DNA of 64,000 bases from the human T2T-CHM13v2.0 reference genome, Homo sapiens (GCF_009914755.1 NC_060934.1), one strand, 5' to 3'; counted from the first letter of the stretch, positions 26,601-48,016 are shown. The notes: generated by a model from the letters alone, not told the origin. A program made the numbers and translations.

Positions 26601-26823
26601 ATGGGGAACATACTGACCTGTCGTGTGCACCCTAGCGTCAGCCTCGAGTTTGACCAGCAGCAGGGGTCGGTGTGTCCCTCTGAATCTGAGATCTATGAGG
26701 CAGGAGCTGAGGACAGGATGGCAGGAGCGCCCATGGCTGCTGCTGTACAGCCTGCTGAGGTGACTGTTGAAGTTGGTGAGGACCTCCACATGCACCAGGT
26801 TCGTGACCGGGAGATGCCTGAAG
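26601..26823 (+). CDS. AGAP-family coding exon 1 (cyclin-Y-like N-terminus)
   Basis: [78 protein letters not shown]|gtgagg. Confidence 0.92.
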
Positions 26824-27191
26824 GTGAGGAGGTGATAGGTGCCATCTACCCTCGGTTTGCCTCTGGCTGCTGCTGTCCCCAAGGTTCCCTTTGAGGCATC
26901 CTACACTTCGAGCTCCTTTCTGCTTGTAGCCAGCTTTCCCGGGGGCTGGCCAGGAACAAAACTGGCTCTGCCTTGAATTCCCACCCCTTAGTCTTTCCCC
27001 ACCGAGTCCAGTCAGTTTCTTTTCGCCTCCCCTCCCAATCGCCCAGTTCTTGCTCTCTCATCTCATTCTCCCAGGCTGGCATGGGACCATTTATTTATGG
27101 CTCTTGTCGAATAAGCAGCAGTTGAATAAATGAGTTGATACATTTTTATAAATGATTACATCTTTTTTCTTTTCTCCCTCTATACATATAG

Positions 27192-27260
27192 CTTTGGAGT
27201 TTAACCTTTCTGCCAATCCAGAGGCAAGCACAATATTCCAGAGGAACTCTCAAACAGATG
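27192..27260 (+). CDS. AGAP-family exon 2 (duplicate of exon 3)
   Basis: (A)[22 protein letters not shown]; 69 nt, phase 1-1, atag|...|gtgaga. Confidence 0.88.
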
Positions 27261-28040
27261 GTGAGACAACAGTGTCTGTAGCTCTGTTTATTATCCTGTG
27301 GGACTTTGTTTAGGCTTCTTTGAGCTATTCTCTTCCTTTTCTCAATAAAAACTCAAATATCCCAACTTTTCAGTACCCATCTTATTTTTTCTTTGTACCT
27401 ATCCAGATGGTACCTAAGTGAAGGAACCAGGTAAGTGCCTAATTGTTTCCTTTGTTAAAGTAGCCAAATCTCAGGACAGTTCCTATTCAAATATTTGGGG
27501 ATTTCTTATTTAAAATCAGAATGGAGGTTGCCACGGGAGAGGCTATATGGTATTCTTAATGGGCTGCTTTAAGTCACCTTGATAGAAGCTGCTTAGTTTC
27601 TTCTAACTGTAATTTGAACACAGAAGGAAAAAGAAAAAAGGAGAGTGCTTAAAATAATTGTGAAAGGTGTGAAATGTCACAGCCGGGGCTGCAGAAAAAT
27701 GGTTGTGTGTGTGTGTTTGGGGTTTCTCAAAGGAGTTTACCTATGAGGCTCTGATTACTTTAAAATTCTTACTTTAACAGAAAATGTGTCTCCAGATTTA
27801 TTCTGGTGACTTAACAGACTTTATTTACCTCCTTGTTCTAAAAGAGAGGTGGGGATTGGTTCATGGTCAAAACTTTCAAAAGACATGAAACGTCAACGTA
27901 GACTTTTAATGTGTAATATAAAGATTGCAGGTTAAAATGTCAGACCTTCCCTGTTAGAGTGTTTGTTGCCATGGCTCCCCCTTTGTCCCTTCCCCTCCTG
28001 ACAATAGCATCTTGTTCAAAGATAAGAAAGTTACAGTTTT

Positions 28041-28345
28041 GGCTGGGCTTGGTGGCTCACGCCTGTAATCCCAGCACTTTGGGAGGCCGTGGCAGGCGGA
28101 TCACCTGAGGTCAGGAGTTCGAGACCAGCCTGGCCAACATAGTGAAACACTGTCTCTACTAAAAAAGAAAATACAAAAATTAGCTGGGCGTAGTGGCGCA
28201 TGACTGTAGTTCCAGCTACTCACAAGGCTGAGGCAGGAGAATTGCTTGGACCTAGGAGGTGGAGGTTGCAGTGAGCAGAGATCACGCCAATGCACTCCAG
28301 CCTGGGTGACAGAGCGAGACTCCGTCTCACAAAAAAAAAAAGGAA
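28041..28345 (+). mobile_element. AluSx-type
   Basis: Full dimer; TSD-like aagaaagtt. Confidence 0.92.
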
Positions 28346-29262
28346 AGAAAGTTGGAGTTTTTTAGTCTCTACACTGCTGGCAGAGGCAGGGGATGGGAGC
28401 CGGTAGAAAAGAGAAAACAATTAGTTGGTTTGCCTCTAAAATTTTGCAAAGAGATGAATCTAAGTAAAAGTAATTCTGGGTAATAATATGGTTCTTGAAT
28501 AAAAACTGAAATTTTCAAAATAGAAAACATTGCATCATAAACATATTAAATCCAGTTGGCTTATTGGTTTCATTTAAATGCCAGAGATTTCATCACTGTA
28601 GAGGAAATGTCTTATAGCTCTTCTATTTAAACTTTGGTCGGGCTCTTAATTTTTAAAGAGGTAGGATAATTAAGACTCATTATGAGTGTGACTTTGTAAC
28701 TTGGAAGTACTATCTTCACATTTCAAGATATTTAAGGATTGCTTTAGAATAAACAAATGCATTATGTGAATTAATTGATTGTACCTTTATACACAAAGCA
28801 TGTAAGTACTTGTGTAAACTTATACTCTGCTTGGTGATGTTCGGAAAGCCTGATGGATGTTACACACCAGTTAGTAGATGGGTAGTGTTGGATGAGAGCC
28901 CAAAAATGGCTCTTTATTGTCATTCTTTAGGATTACAACACAGTTTATGTATGTCTCACTTGGCCCTTTCCAATACAAATAAGGCCTGTGTATGTTCTCC
29001 CTATGTATTGCTAATGAAGAAATGAAAACTTAGAGATATCACATGACTATGGAAGACAGCTACTCAAGAGAACTAAGGTTCTGTGTCCTCAGAATGAAAT
29101 GGAAGTGACAGATATGATGAATTTACTTTTTAAAAATTTTAAAAACTCTAGAATACATCTTATATTTTGCCTATAAAATAGACTGTCTTTTAAAACTTAC
29201 TGCTATCTTGATTTATTTTATGCAAAGTTGATTTTACACAACTCAAAGCCAAAATTTACCTC

Positions 29263-29405
29263 TTTTTTTTTTTTTTTTTTAAATAAAGGAGGGTGTCATT
29301 GTGTTACTCATGCTGGCCTCAACTTCCTGACCTGGGTTCAAGTGATTTTCCCATCTCAGCCTCCTGAGTAGCTGGGACTACAAGCATGTGCCATCTTGCC
29401 TGGCT
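29263..29405 (-). mobile_element. Alu monomer
   Basis: Single antisense arm after a T run. Confidence 0.75.
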
Positions 29406-45330: not shown

Positions 45331-45854
45331 GTTTATACACAGGCACAATGCATTAGTTTTACAAAGTTTAAAGTTCATCAAAGACTGGCCTCTTAAAAAG
45401 GCAGATGAGTTTGTCATTCAAACAACAGAAAGTACATAAATACATCATGAGAGTATACTACAGAGAACTAAAGAGAAAGGAAGCTAGGAAATCTGAATCA
45501 CATTTACATTTATTAAAGTTTACTACTACTGCTTTGTAGAACATTCTTGTGTTTCAATGTGTGGTTAGAAGAGTGAAAAGATGTTTGGTTTATTGCCATG
45601 GCCTGTTAGGGAGAGTCAATACTCACGGGCATTTCTGACTGGTTATCATATAAAAGACTTCACGGTACAGGCCATGATGTGCTGAGAAAGAAGAAGTCAG
45701 GAAACCCTCTGCAAGTCAGGATCCAAGAGAAGAATTCGTAAAAACTGCTTTGGTAAAGTAAACACCAAAGCACACAGGAGGCAGTATTTTACTCAACAAA
45801 TATTATACTAAGATATTAACAGTTTTTGAAGTAATGCGCTTTCTTATTTTATAG

Positions 45855-45906
45855 AGATGCAGATAGATCTTTGAGCATACCTGATGAACAGTTACACTCA
45901 TTTGCG
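45855..45906 (+). CDS. AGAP-family exon 7
   Basis: (R)DADRSLSIPDEQLHSFA; ttatag|...|gtaagt. Confidence 0.9.
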
Positions 45907-46127
45907 GTAAGTGGCACTTTTATTGAGGTTGTATTTTCATCGTACACTTGTATCTGTTTCATGCTGAAGTCAAAGCCATCTTTTTTTAAATCTTCCCCAT
46001 TTCATGTTGCATTTAGTCATCTTAAGTGTTGTAAAAAGAATGTGCTGGAGTAAGAACTGATCTGCAGCTCTGTTTAGTTAGTGAGCTAGTATGAGTAAAT
46101 ATACTATCCAAACAACAGAAAATGTAT

Positions 46128-46440
46128 CTTTTTTTTTTTTTTTTTTTATGGACTCTCTTTCTGTAGCCCAGGCTGGAGTGCAATCGCGCGATCTTGGCTC
46201 ACTGCAGGCTCTGCCTCCCAGGTCCCTGTTCAAGCAATTCTCCTGCCTCAGCCTCCCGAGTAACTGGAATTACAGGCATGTGCCACCATGCCCAGCTAAT
46301 TTTTTTTTCTTTTTTTTTTTTTTGTAAAGACAGGGTTTCACCATGTTGGCCAGGATGGTCTTGAACTCCTGACCTCGTGATCCACCCACCTTGGCCTCCC
46401 AAAGTGCTGTGATTACAGGTGTGAGCCACCATGCCTGGCC
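46128..46440 (-). mobile_element. AluS
   Basis: Antisense dimer; TSD cagaaaatgtatcttttt. Confidence 0.93.
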
Positions 46441-46540
46441 CAGAAAATGTATCTTTTTAAAAGGTAATTGTGAGCTGTCTATAGGACCCTGCAAGCCACT
46501 ACCCAATTTTTGAAGCCATTCCTCCTTCTGTTCCACACAG

Positions 46541-48016
46541 GTTTCCACCGTGCACATTATGAAGAAAAGAAATGGAGGTGGGAGTTTAAATAACTATTCC
46601 TCCTCCATTCCACCGACTCCCAGCACCAGCCAGGAGGACCCTCAGTTCAGTGTTCCTCCCACTGCCAACACACCCACGCCCGTTTGCAAGCGGTCCATGC
46701 GCTGGTCCAACCTGTTTACATCTGAGAAAGGGAGTGACCCAGACAAAGAGAGGAAAGCCCCGGAGAATCATGCTGACACCATCGGGAGCGGCAGAGCCAT
46801 CCCCATTAAACAGGGCATGCTCTTAAAGCGAAGTGGGAAATGGCTGAAGACATGGAAAAAGAAATACGTCACCCTGTGTTCCAATGGCGTGCTCACCTAT
46901 TATTCAAGCTTAGGTGATTATATGAAGAATATTCATAAAAAAGAGATTGACCTTCAGACATCTACCATCAAAGTCCCAGGAAAGTGGCCATCCCTAGCCA
47001 CATCGGCCTGCGCACCCATCTCCAGCTCTAAAAGCAATGGCCTATCCAAGGACATGGACATCGGGCTGGGTGACTCCATATGCTTCAGCCCCAGTATCTC
47101 CAGCACCACCAGCCCCAAGCTCAACCCACCCCCCTCCCCTCATGCCAATAAAAAGAAACACCTAAAGAAGAAAAGCACCAACAACTTTATGATTGTGTCT
47201 GCCACTGGCCAAACGTGGCACTTTGAAGCCACGACGTATGAGGAGCGGGATGCATGGGTCCAAGCCATCCAGAGCCAGATCCTGGCCAGCCTGCAGTCAT
47301 GCGAGAGCAGTAAAAGCAAGTCCCAGCTGACCAGCCAGAGCGAGGCCATGGCCCTGCAGTCGATCCAAAACATGTGTGGGAACGCCCACTGTGTGGACTG
47401 TGAGACCCAGAATCCTAAGTGGGCCAGTTTGAACTTGGGAGTCCTCATGTGTATTGAATGCTCAGGTATCCACCGCAGTCTTGGCACCCGCCTTTCCCGT
47501 GTGCGATCTCTGGAGCTGGATGACTGGCCAGTTGAGCTCAGGAAGGTTATGTCATCTATTGGCAATGACCTAGCCAACAGCATCTGGGAAGGGAGCAGCC
47601 AGGGGCAGACAAAACCCTCAGAAAAGTCCACGAGGGAAGAGAAGGAACGGTGGATCCGTTCCAAATATGAGGAGAAGCTCTTTCTGGCCCCACTACCCTG
47701 CACTGAGCTGTCCCTGGGCCAGCAGCTGCTGCGGGCCACCGCTGATGAGGACCTGCAGACAGCCATCCTGCTGCTGGCACATGGCTCCCGTGAGGAGGTG
47801 AACGAGACCTGTGGGGAGGGAGACGGCTGCACGGCGCTCCATCTGGCCTGCCGCAAGGGGAATGTGGTCCTGGCGCAGCTCCTGATCTGGTACGGGGTGG
47901 ACGTCATGGCCCGAGATGCCCACGGGAACACAGCGCTGACCTACGCCCGGCAGGCCTCCAGCCAGGAGTGCATCAACGTGCTTCTGCAGTATGGCTGCCC
48001 CGACGAGTGCATGTAG
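46541..48016 (+). CDS. AGAP-family terminal exon: split PH domain, ArfGAP zinc finger and ankyrin repeats (AGAP1-derived retrocopy)
   Basis: 491-codon open frame; PH start [12 protein letters not shown]; ArfGAP motif CVDC-x16-CIEC-x4-R; ankyrin repeats GCTALHLAC and [11 protein letters not shown] ends at 48016. Confidence 0.96.

What the first reader, a model, noticed from the sequence alone, without database searches (positions are those of the whole stretch)
26601..48016. The 'AGAP' gene is a cyclin-Y-like / AGAP1-retrocopy chimera
Seen: seven small intron-separated exons spliced to one 1476-nt exon that holds PH, ArfGAP and ANK domains. No GTPase-like domain is encoded. Recalled knowledge: the 195 aa from exons 1-7 are colinear with the CCNYL1/CCNY N-terminus (MGNILTC~MGNTLTC, DREMPE~[18 protein letters not shown]~NPSDHPRASTIF, SQTDV~[15 protein letters not shown] identical, VTLEIPHHITQRDADRSL~VTLAIYYHIKNRDANRSL). 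They stop just before the cyclin box. AGAP1 encodes the PH-ArfGAP-ANK part over many exons. Inference: an AGAP1 mRNA fragment landed in an intron of a CCNYL2-type gene and became its last exon, and the fusion was then amplified by segmental duplication. The family name hides this origin. I cannot say whether it has been reported.
Basis: partly seen in the sequence, partly recalled or inferred. Interest (0 to 1): 0.88.

Follow-up and report, generated by a model that had tools for sequence, protein, structure and literature searches.

The report
Cyclin-Y / AGAP1 retrocopy fusion, pseudogene copy
This chromosome-10 "AGAP" gene copy really is the front end of a cyclin-Y-like gene spliced onto an intronless copy of AGAP1, but that origin was published in 2008, and this copy is a pseudogene with a broken splice site.

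Summary

- **Host part.** Window 23597-46471 aligns, introns included, with a cyclin-Y-like locus at chr10:43.3 Mb at 82-90% identity. Its exon lengths and phases equal those of the cyclin-Y-like gene at chr2:208.19 Mb.
- **Retrocopy.** Window 46472-49667 is a 5'-truncated, intronless copy of AGAP1 mRNA. It joins 11 AGAP1 exon pieces that span about 327 kb of chr2. It starts after the GTPase-like domain and has no poly(A) tail or target-site duplication.
- **Splice acceptor.** The acceptor at 46540/46541 lies inside former AGAP1 coding sequence and keeps the AGAP1 frame.
- **Copies.** Ten copies lie on chr10.
- **Prior report.** Baertsch et al. 2008 (PMC2584115) already describe CTGLF1 (now AGAP4) as a cyclin gene that gained PH, ArfGAP and ankyrin domains from a CENTG2 (AGAP1) retrocopy. 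A 2024 paper on the AGAP duplicons does not mention this.

Added here:
- exact junctions;
- loss of about 1.5 kb of host intron at the insertion;
- an extra 23-codon exon copy present in all nine copies that hold exon 1;
- a GT>AT donor change at 39939, found only in this copy, after the 101-nt exon that RefSeq's frameshifted transcript skips.

The parts
23597..26600 (+). 5' flank of the host gene, homologous to the cyclin-Y-like locus at chr10:43.33 Mb (minus strand)
   Evidence: Colinear blastn blocks 23597-23700 (95%), 24487-24701 (85%) and 25004-27105 (85.5%). My fetched subject contig ended about 190 b beyond this, so the homology may start further upstream.
26601..26823 (+). Host exon 1, coding part. 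It begins MGNILTC, keeping Gly2 and Cys7. Donor GT.
   Evidence: Nine chr10 copies at 93-100% aa. Then chr10:43.33 Mb 62%, 38.22 Mb 64%, 39.05 Mb 62%, chr2:208.186 Mb 47%, chr19:30.47 Mb 44%. Same length class as the chr2 locus, 223 vs 220 nt.
27106..27272 (+). About 167-bp insert in intron 1 carrying an extra copy of the 69-nt exon (27192-27260, AG/GT). It is specific to the AGAP family.
   Evidence: Window 27115-27275 and 28630-30646 both align to the single exon-2 region of the chr10:43.3 Mb locus. The insert is present in 9 of 9 AGAP-type copies examined. It is absent from the cyclin-Y-like locus, where only the flanks match.
29552..29620 (+). Host 69-nt exon at its original position (phase 1 to 1)
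   Evidence: The peptide's only PDB hit is Cyclin-Y 60-81, E 8.6e-4.
32261..32295 (+). Host 35-nt exon
   Evidence: It is 35 nt with AG/GT in the chr2 locus too. The chr10:43.3 Mb locus has 36 nt, a frameshift there.
39838..39938 (+). Host 101-nt exon (contains [10 protein letters not shown]). In this copy it is followed by AT at 39939-39940 instead of GT. RefSeq's transcript skips it.
   Evidence: The donor is GT in the 9 other AGAP-type copies and AT only here; 2 of the 10 copies have a 1-nt deletion in the exon. The only PDB hit is Cyclin-Y 101-125, E 0.035.
42525..42560 (+). Host 36-nt exon
45855..45906 (+). Host 52-nt exon, the last cyclin-Y-like exon. It ends in phase 0.
46128..46442 (-). 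Alu inserted in the host intron, flanked by a 17-base direct repeat (46120-46136 and 46443-46459)
   Evidence: Read. Multiple Alu-type hits. 'Alu' is my naming from the sequence and the masked stretch in the hub table.
46443..46471 (+). Last bases of host intron before the insertion
   Evidence: Homology to the chr10:43.3 Mb locus runs to window 46471 and then stops.
46472..49667 (+). 5'-truncated, intronless AGAP1 retrocopy: part of one exon, ten further coding exons and part of the 3'UTR. Later repeat insertions lie at about 48355-48660 and 48741-49356.
   Evidence: 11 AGAP1 pieces from chr2:236287040 to 236615376. Coding identity 1289 of 1457 nt. 3'UTR blocks at 88.7%, 92.6% and 90.6%.
46472..46540 (+). 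Retrocopy sequence (former AGAP1 codons) now serving as the 3' end of the last intron: pyrimidine tract plus CAG acceptor
   Evidence: Aligned to the AGAP1 exon at chr2:236287040-236287124. The same pyrimidine-rich run and CAG|GT are already present in AGAP1. An in-frame TGA lies at 46511-46513.
46541..48016 (+). Last coding exon: linker, split PH, ArfGAP (C4 zinc finger and Arg retained), two or more ankyrin repeats, TAG stop
   Evidence: Same reading frame as AGAP1. 400 of 483 aligned codons give the same residue.
49665..50086 (+). Host intron resumes, then homology to the cyclin-Y-like locus ends. No cyclin-box exon follows in the window.
   Evidence: 91-92% to offsets 38045-37313 of the chr10:43.3 Mb contig. 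tblastn of the paralogue's cyclin-box exon against the window gives only E >= 0.58.

Best explanation
The region is one copy (AGAP13P) of the catarrhine chromosome-10 AGAP4-14 family, whose founder was a chimeric retrogene.

Proposed history:
1. An AGAP1 mRNA lacking everything up to the end of its GTPase-like domain was reverse-transcribed. It landed in the intron after the sixth coding exon of a cyclin-Y-like (CCNYL2-type) gene, upstream of that gene's cyclin box.
2. A pyrimidine tract plus CAG that already existed inside AGAP1 coding sequence became the 3' splice site. Host exons ending in phase 0 therefore join the AGAP1 frame directly.
3. The predicted product has a cyclin-Y N-terminal head with the Gly2/Cys7 lipidation motif but no cyclin box. 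This head is fused to PH, ArfGAP and ankyrin domains, with no GTPase-like domain. My inferred mechanism is a lipid-anchored ArfGAP cut loose from the regulation its GTPase-like domain gives AGAP1.
4. The roughly 22-kb unit then spread by segmental duplication.

In this copy a G>A change destroys the donor of the 101-nt exon. The annotated transcript skips that exon and is frameshifted, so this copy is most likely a transcribed pseudogene.

Shown here: the anatomy, junctions, paralogy, copy number and donor defect. Inferred: the retroposition mechanism, membrane targeting and GAP activity.
For: **Host part**
- Colinear genomic alignment, introns included, of window 23597-46471 with chr10:43333813-43303917 (minus strand) at 82-90%.
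- Exon lengths, phases and AG/GT positions are shared with the chr2:208.19 Mb locus.
- 52% amino-acid identity to that locus, z = 29.
- Cyclin-Y is the sole PDB hit for two exon peptides.
- The paralogue has a cyclin-box exon.

**Retrocopy**
- Ten AGAP1 introns of 1.5-76 kb are absent.
- 7 of 10 junctions fall on canonical GT..AG splits by script.
- By inspection, two more junctions are exact exon joins. The tenth lies inside a 54-nt in-frame deletion.
- AGAP1 is the closest parent at 59-91% per piece. The matching pieces on chr7 reach 48-77% and those on chr12 reach 44-65%.
- The retrocopy's 5' end abuts host intron at 46471/46472.

**Frame and domains**
-.
- dN/dS against AGAP1 is 0.31 overall, 0.18 for ArfGAP and 0.19 for ANK.
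- All 8 full-length copies compared keep the 491-codon frame open.

**Amplification**
- Ten chr10 copies of the last exon.
- Nine copies of exon 1.
- Ten copies of the 101-nt exon.

**Pseudogene state**
-.

**Literature**
- Baertsch 2008, passages seen.
- Catarrhine-specific family of 10 chr10 copies, with AGAP13P listed as a pseudogene: Genome Res 2024, passages seen.
- N-terminal myristoylation and palmitoylation signals of Y-type cyclins, and CCNYL2/CCNYL3 called pseudogenes: bioRxiv 10.64898/2025.12.15.694124, Introduction passage.
Against: - There is no poly(A) tail and no target-site duplication at the 3' junction. The retrocopy ends inside the AGAP1 3'UTR. About 1.5 kb of unique host intron is missing where it sits. 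The classical hallmarks of L1-mediated insertion are therefore absent, and retroposition rests on intron loss alone.
- About 0.9 kb of AGAP1 sequence, covering the end of its reading frame and the start of the 3'UTR, has no counterpart here.
- Exon 1 finds no PDB hit, and no Pfam family covers the N-terminal pieces.
- Synonymous divergence from AGAP1 (dS 0.27) and about 10% 3'UTR divergence look high for an insertion said to be absent from marmoset. I could not resolve this.
- The chr10:43.3 Mb paralogue is itself degraded: an AC acceptor and a 36-nt exon.
- No RNA or protein data were examined here. Splicing rests on the hub's RefSeq table.
- Membrane targeting and GAP activity of the product are untested.
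Confidence: 0.95

Rival explanations
1. The PH-ArfGAP-ANK block came from AGAP1 by DNA-level duplication or exon shuffling rather than through an mRNA.
For: There is no poly(A) tail or target-site duplication, and the insertion coincides with a deletion of host intron.
Against: Ten introns totalling about 327 kb are missing, and nine of the ten joins fall exactly at AGAP1 splice sites. A DNA-level copy would keep intron sequence.
Confidence: 0.02
2. This window's copy still makes the full 686-residue protein.
For: All eight exons are present. The joined frame is open. The last exon is intact and 97-98% identical to its full-length paralogues.
Against: The donor after the 101-nt exon is AT here and GT in the 9 other copies. 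RefSeq's only transcript skips that exon and is frameshifted (hub table). The copy is listed as a pseudogene in Ensembl (Genome Res 2024, Table 1).
Confidence: 0.07
3. The host was not CCNYL2 itself. It was a separate cyclin-Y-like paralogue, possibly at the site of the most divergent copy at chr10:87.89 Mb, and the present CCNYL2-type loci are only its cousins.
For: - The host part is about equally distant from the chr10:43.3 Mb and 38.23 Mb loci in the same intron stretches (87.2% vs 87.2%; 87.5% vs 88.5%).
- That divergence is not smaller than the divergence between the retrocopy's 3'UTR and AGAP1's 3'UTR, about 10%.
- The chr10:87.89 Mb copy branches first when AGAP1 is the outgroup (SH-aLRT 95).
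- Baertsch 2008 names a mouse cyclin-only transcript as the ancestral form.
Against: - Gene conversion among the pericentromeric copies can give the same tree. The Genome Res 2024 authors say so.
- The tree was rooted at the midpoint only.
- No outgroup genomes were available.
Confidence: 0.5
4. The N-terminal likeness to cyclin Y is a chance or low-complexity match.
For: PDB E-values for single exons are modest (8.6e-4 and 0.035). Exon 1 has no PDB hit.
Against: Intron-inclusive genomic colinearity over about 23 kb. Identical exon lengths and phases. z = 29 against shuffles.
Confidence: 0.01

Closest known systems
CTGLF1 / AGAP4 as described by Baertsch et al. 2008 (BMC Genomics 9:466, PMC2584115), 'type I retrocopy exon acquisition'
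   Same: The same event. That paper describes a cyclin gene that gained PH, ArfGAP and ankyrin domains from a CENTG2 (AGAP1) retrocopy at its C-terminal end. It reports the fusion in human, chimpanzee, orangutan and rhesus (with stops) but not marmoset (Table 2 row and one paragraph seen). The window's copy is a 97-98% paralogue of the other full-length copies of the last exon.
   Different: This copy (AGAP13P) has the donor defect and is a pseudogene. In the passages I saw, the paper gives no junction coordinates. It does not mention the acceptor inside AGAP1 coding sequence, the missing poly(A)/TSD, or the duplicated 23-codon exon. I did not read its figures or supplements.
AGAP1 (CENTG2), chr2:236.29-236.62 Mb in this assembly. 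The name comes from recall of the map position and from the hg38 position in Table 1 of PMC11534156.
   Same: PH, ArfGAP and ANK in the same order and frame. 88.5% nt and 83% aa identity over the aligned part. The zinc-finger cysteines and the Arg after it are retained (read).
   Different: - No GTPase-like domain.
- No introns.
- In-frame deletions of 27 and 54 nt in the PH insert.
- The AGAP1 C-terminal tail is replaced by an early stop.
- A different N-terminus.
Cyclin-Y-like genes: chr10:43.3 Mb (CCNYL2 by recall), chr10:38.2 and 39.05 Mb, chr2:208.19 Mb (CCNYL1 by recall); Cyclin-Y of PDB 9r2i
   Same: N-terminal 172 residues, exon structure, and the Gly2/Cys7 start.
   Different: - The cyclin box is absent from the window.
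- An extra exon copy is present.
- The basic residues that precede CSTIFLDD in Cyclin-Y (RKRAS) are not kept (QQYSL).
Other primate chimeric retrogenes such as TRIM5-CypA and PIPSL (recalled, not examined here)
   Same: A retrocopy captured by host-gene splicing gives a new domain combination.
   Different: Here the fusion was afterwards amplified to ten copies and marks segmental-duplication breakpoints at 10q11.22 (PMC11534156).

Membership tests
Chimeric retrogene (retrocopy acquired as an exon by a host gene) | Sequence colinear with the parent mRNA and lacking the parent's introns | tested here: met
   Ten AGAP1 introns are absent. Nine joins are exact and one lies inside a 54-nt deletion.
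Chimeric retrogene (retrocopy acquired as an exon by a host gene) | Poly(A) tail and target-site duplication at the insertion | tested here: not met
   No A-run at 49667. Host intron resumes at 49665, and about 1.5 kb of unique intron is missing. They may have been lost by a later deletion.
Chimeric retrogene (retrocopy acquired as an exon by a host gene) | Host exons spliced in frame to the retrocopy | tested here: inconclusive
   The AG acceptor at 46540, phase 0 and an open frame are shown. Actual splicing from 45906 to 46541 is taken from the hub's RefSeq table. No RNA data were examined.
Cyclin Y family | N-terminal region with lipidation motif and conserved blocks | tested here: met
Cyclin Y family | Cyclin box | tested here: not met
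   Host exons stop before it. There is no match in the window to the paralogue's cyclin-box exon. Pfam finds no cyclin domain in the two N-terminal exon peptides or the last exon. By this criterion it is not a cyclin.
AGAP subfamily of ArfGAPs (GTPase-like domain + split PH + ArfGAP + ANK) | ArfGAP, PH and ankyrin domains | tested here: met
   Pfam ArfGap 129 bits, PH 45.6 bits, Ank_2 48.7 bits.
AGAP subfamily of ArfGAPs (GTPase-like domain + split PH + ArfGAP + ANK) | GTPase-like domain | tested here: not met
   The retrocopy starts at 46472, and the sequence upstream is host intron. No GTPase family appears. The gene name is therefore a misnomer in this respect.
Chromosome-10 AGAP4-14 duplicon family | Shared roughly 22-kb unit with host exons, extra exon copy and retrocopy at 95% identity or more | tested here: met
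   AGAP13P is placed with AGAP4, 6, 7P and 10P in PMC11534156.

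The most novel reading that the evidence does not exclude
The chr10 AGAP family encodes a functionally new protein class: an ArfGAP carried to membranes by the lipidated head of cyclin Y. It would be freed from control by the GTPase-like domain and kept under some purifying selection. It was created because a fortuitous splice acceptor lay inside AGAP1 coding sequence. AGAP13P would differ from a working copy by a single donor-site base, so it may be functional on other human haplotypes.
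Probability: 0.2. Interest if true: 0.45.

Novelty: already known. Interest (0 to 1): 0.18.

Why it matters
The chimeric origin explains why the AGAP4-14 proteins lack the GTPase-like domain that their name advertises, and why they start like cyclin Y.

It is a textbook-quality case of domain shuffling by retroposition followed by segmental duplication. The unit sits at the breakpoints of 10q11.22 rearrangements.

The origin was published in 2008 in one table row and one paragraph. The main text of the 2024 paper devoted to these duplicons holds neither 'cyclin' nor 'CCNY', and 'retro' occurs only in 'retrograde'. The point is known but little used.

For this window the practical result is an annotation detail: what disables AGAP13P.

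Tried and rejected
- **Exon 1 against PDB.** No hit at E <= 10.
- **Pfam on N-terminal peptides.** Nothing.
- **tblastx of the two cyclin-Y-like loci.** Mostly noise. Only the cyclin-box exon was useful.
- **Search for poly(A), TSD and a clean empty site.** Negative.
- **Ungapped junction script.** It failed for 3 of 10 junctions because of nearby indels. These were resolved by reading the sequences.
- **Dating from divergence.** dS of 0.27 and about 10% 3'UTR divergence do not give a secure age without outgroup genomes, so I gave none.
- **Literature.**
  - 'AGAP4' + 'CCNYL2' gave 0 papers.
  - A six-term search on AGAP4, retrogene and cyclin Y returned 38 papers. None of the 15 listed held 'AGAP4', 'AGAP1' or 'cyclin Y'.
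  - Of the 20 papers holding 'CCNYL2', none of the 15 listed titles concerns AGAP.
  - PMC11218289 held nothing on cyclin Y myristoylation.
- **Wider comparison with the chr10:38.2 and 39.05 Mb loci.** Only 7 kb was compared.

Full report
**1. What is in the window**

The ATG is at 26601. Eight coding segments are present:

| Segment | Length (nt) |
|---|---|
| 26601-26823 | 223 |
| 27192-27260 | 69 |
| 29552-29620 | 69 |
| 32261-32295 | 35 |
| 39838-39938 | 101 |
| 42525-42560 | 36 |
| 45855-45906 | 52 |
| 46541-48016 | 1476 |

- Joined, they give an open frame of 686 codons. The seven small segments supply 195 of these.
- All have AG/GT borders except the donor after 39938, which reads AT.
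- The stop-to-stop frame around the last exon runs 46514-48016.
- Pfam finds ArfGap (E 1.2e-37), PH (1.1e-11) and ankyrin families on its 491 residues, and no GTPase family.
- The exon set of RefSeq NR_165819.1 (hub table) leaves out 39838-39938, is frameshifted and soon meets stops. It also starts at 26625, after the ATG.

**2. The front part is a cyclin-Y-like gene**

- *Copies of exon 1.* In the window's own assembly the exon-1 peptide finds 14 places at E <= 0.001 among 22 scored candidates.
  - Nine are chr10 AGAP-type copies at 93-100% identity.
  - Three are other chr10 loci: 43.33 Mb at 62%, 38.22 Mb at 64% and 39.05 Mb at 62%.
  - The remaining two are chr2:208.186 Mb (47%) and chr19:30.47 Mb (44%, one stop).
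- *Genomic colinearity.* After dropping query stretches that hit more than two places (repeats), blastn of the window against 70 kb around chr10:43.3 Mb leaves a single colinear minus-strand chain. It runs from window 23597 to 46133 at 82-90% identity, introns included. A short-word search extends it to 46471.
- *Exon structure.* In the chr2:208.19 Mb locus the six homologous exons are 220, 69, 35, 101, 36 and 52 nt, each with AG and GT at the homologous positions. They join in frame.
- *Protein similarity.* The conceptual peptides share 90 of 172 residues. The score is 389 against -42 +/- 15 for 300 shuffles, none of which reaches it.
- *Independent naming.*
  - The 69-nt-exon peptide has one PDB hit, Cyclin-Y 60-81 (E 8.6e-4).
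  - The 101-nt-exon peptide also has one hit, Cyclin-Y 101-125 (E 0.035).
  - Exon 1 has none.
- *Cyclin box in the paralogue.* About 5.4 kb downstream of the point equivalent to the insertion site, the chr10:43.3 Mb locus holds an exon that matches Cyclin-Y 191-254 at E 1.4e-26. It also matches Pfam PF08613 at 26.5 bits, above the cut-off of 21. The window has no counterpart of that exon.
- *State of the paralogue.* The chr10:43.3 Mb locus is itself damaged: an AC acceptor at the 69-nt exon and a 36-nt version of the 35-nt exon. This fits the statement, seen in a preprint's Introduction, that CCNYL2 and CCNYL3 are regarded as pseudogenes.
- *Basis of names.* CCNYL1 and CCNYL2 for the chr2 and chr10:43.3 Mb loci are my recall of map positions. 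No tool named them.

**3. The back part is an AGAP1 retrocopy**

- *One block here, many pieces in AGAP1.* The 491-residue exon is one uninterrupted block in ten chr10 places at 96-100% identity. One of these is split by a frameshift. On chr2:236.29-236.61 Mb it falls into ten pieces at 59-91% identity. The matching pieces on chr7 and chr12 score lower: 48-77% and 44-65%.
- *DNA level.* Window 46563-48010 aligns end to end with those ten exons at 81-93%.
- *5' extension.* Window 46473-46557 matches a further AGAP1 exon at chr2:236287040-236287124 at 84%.
- *Junctions.*
  - A script placed 7 of 10 junctions on canonical GT..AG splits of AGAP1. Six were at the mismatch minimum and one was one mismatch above it. 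Intron lengths were 1.5-76 kb.
  - Reading the other three shows two more exact joins. One of them sits next to a 27-nt in-frame deletion.
  - The last junction is swallowed by a 54-nt in-frame deletion.
- *Similarity.* Identity is 1289 of 1457 nt. 400 of 483 aligned codons give the same residue. dS is 0.27, dN 0.086 and the ratio 0.31, with 0.18 for ArfGAP and 0.19 for ANK.
- *3' part.* After the stop, similarity jumps over about 0.9 kb of AGAP1, whose frame continues past that point. It then follows the AGAP1 3'UTR to window 49667, interrupted by repeat insertions at about 48355-48660 and 48741-49356.

**4. The junctions**

- *Upstream.* Host-intron homology stops at 46471 and AGAP1 homology starts at 46472-46473. 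The retrocopy's first 69 bases now form the end of the intron. The pyrimidine-rich run and the CAG|GT used as acceptor at 46540/46541 are already present in the AGAP1 exon, where they are codons. The host's last exon ends in phase 0 and the acceptor falls between AGAP1 codons, so the AGAP1 frame is kept.
- *Downstream.* AGAP1 3'UTR similarity ends at 49667 and host-intron similarity resumes at 49665, running to about 50086.
- *Missing hallmarks.* There is no A-run and no direct repeat. Between the two host break points the chr10:43.3 Mb locus holds 1.87 kb. Of this, about 0.33 kb is a repeat and about 1.5 kb is unique sequence with no counterpart in the window. The classical marks of L1-mediated insertion are missing, either through a target-site deletion or a later loss. 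Retroposition therefore rests on intron loss.

**5. Family features and this copy's defect**

- *Extra exon copy.* A roughly 167-bp insert in intron 1 carries a second copy of the 69-nt exon. It is present in 9 of 9 AGAP-type copies examined and absent from the cyclin-Y-like locus. This accounts for the 663- and 686-residue forms listed by Kahn et al. 2008 (table seen).
- *Donor site.* Among 14 loci holding the 101-nt exon, the ten AGAP-type copies have GT at the donor in nine and AT only in the window. Two copies carry a 1-nt deletion. Of the four cyclin-Y-like loci, three have GT and the chr10:38.23 Mb locus has AT.
- *Frame conservation.* The eight full-length copies compared all keep the 491-codon frame. 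Pairwise dN/dS is 0.29-0.79, on 5-19 changes of each kind per pair, and the pairs are not independent.
- *Tree.* With AGAP1 added, the chr10:87.89 Mb copy branches first (SH-aLRT 95; midpoint root only). This agrees with the AGAP11 clade in the 2024 paper, whose authors warn that gene conversion blurs this history.
- *Closest host paralogue.* The host part is equally distant from the chr10:43.3 and 38.23 Mb loci over the stretches compared.

**6. What is known**

- *Baertsch et al. 2008 (PMC2584115).* I saw a Table 2 row and one paragraph. [quoted passage not shown] They name a mouse cyclin-only transcript as the ancestral form. They report presence in human, chimpanzee, orangutan and rhesus (with stops) and absence in marmoset.
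- *Kahn et al. 2008 (PMC2542466).* Passages seen. CTGLF1-7 were renamed AGAP4-10, and AGAPs are described as possessing a GTP-binding domain.
- *The 2024 Genome Research paper on AGAP duplicons (PMC11534156).* Passages and term counts seen. It lists AGAP13P as a pseudogene and calls the chr10 copies catarrhine-specific. It dates the human splits to 5.7-1.4 million years ago. Its main text contains 0 occurrences of 'cyclin', 'CCNY' or 'fusion', and 'retro' occurs only in 'retrograde'. I did not see its supplements or those of Baertsch et al.

**7. Mechanism**

- *Shown.* Anatomy, frame, domain content, and loss of both the cyclin box and the GTPase-like domain.
- *Inferred for intact paralogues.*
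  - The start MGNILTC keeps Gly2 and Cys7. Y-type cyclins carry N-terminal myristoylation and palmitoylation signals needed for plasma-membrane localisation (preprint Introduction). The fusion may therefore be a lipid-anchored ArfGAP.
  - The ArfGAP zinc-finger cysteines and the following Arg are kept.
  - The basic run before CSTIFLDD in Cyclin-Y is not kept. From recall, that run is part of a 14-3-3 site, so that regulation is probably lost.
- *For this copy.* The most likely outcome is a non-coding, frameshifted transcript.

**8. Verdict**

The additions here are junction-level detail and the lesion that disables AGAP13P. Interest is low.

Noticed in passing
G000 chr9:85800284-85801195 and chr1:178942323-178944070 (not in the window): Two further intronless AGAP1-like blocks. 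The chr9 block covers residues 1-279 at 75% in an open frame of 319 aa. The chr1 block is at 58-78% with several stops and crosses the same first exon-exon join. They look like older or independent AGAP1 retrocopies.
   Followed up: no
G000 chr19:30466438-30493090 and chr15:91192156-91192304: More cyclin-Y-like sequence. The chr19 locus has exon 1 and the 101-nt exon 26 kb apart, so it has introns, with one stop in exon 1. The chr15 match covers the 101-nt exon only.
   Followed up: no
window 46120-46459: An Alu in the last host intron is flanked by a perfect 17-base target-site duplication. It lies 13 bases upstream of the retrocopy junction.
   Followed up: partly
window 48010-48022 versus L033:557-1463: About 0.9 kb of AGAP1 (the end of its reading frame and the start of the 3'UTR) is missing. 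The family's stop codon lies in what aligns to AGAP1 3'UTR.
   Followed up: partly
window 50087-64000: Homology to the cyclin-Y-like locus ends near 50086. The cyclin-box exons are not in the window. What the downstream sequence derives from was not examined.
   Followed up: no
window 46541-48016 versus AGAP1: A synonymous divergence of 0.27 seems high for an insertion reported as absent from marmoset. CpG decay or an older origin are possible, and this is unresolved.
   Followed up: partly
L044 (chr10:38.23 Mb): This cyclin-Y-like locus also has AT instead of GT after its 101-nt exon, in a different sequence context.
   Followed up: no
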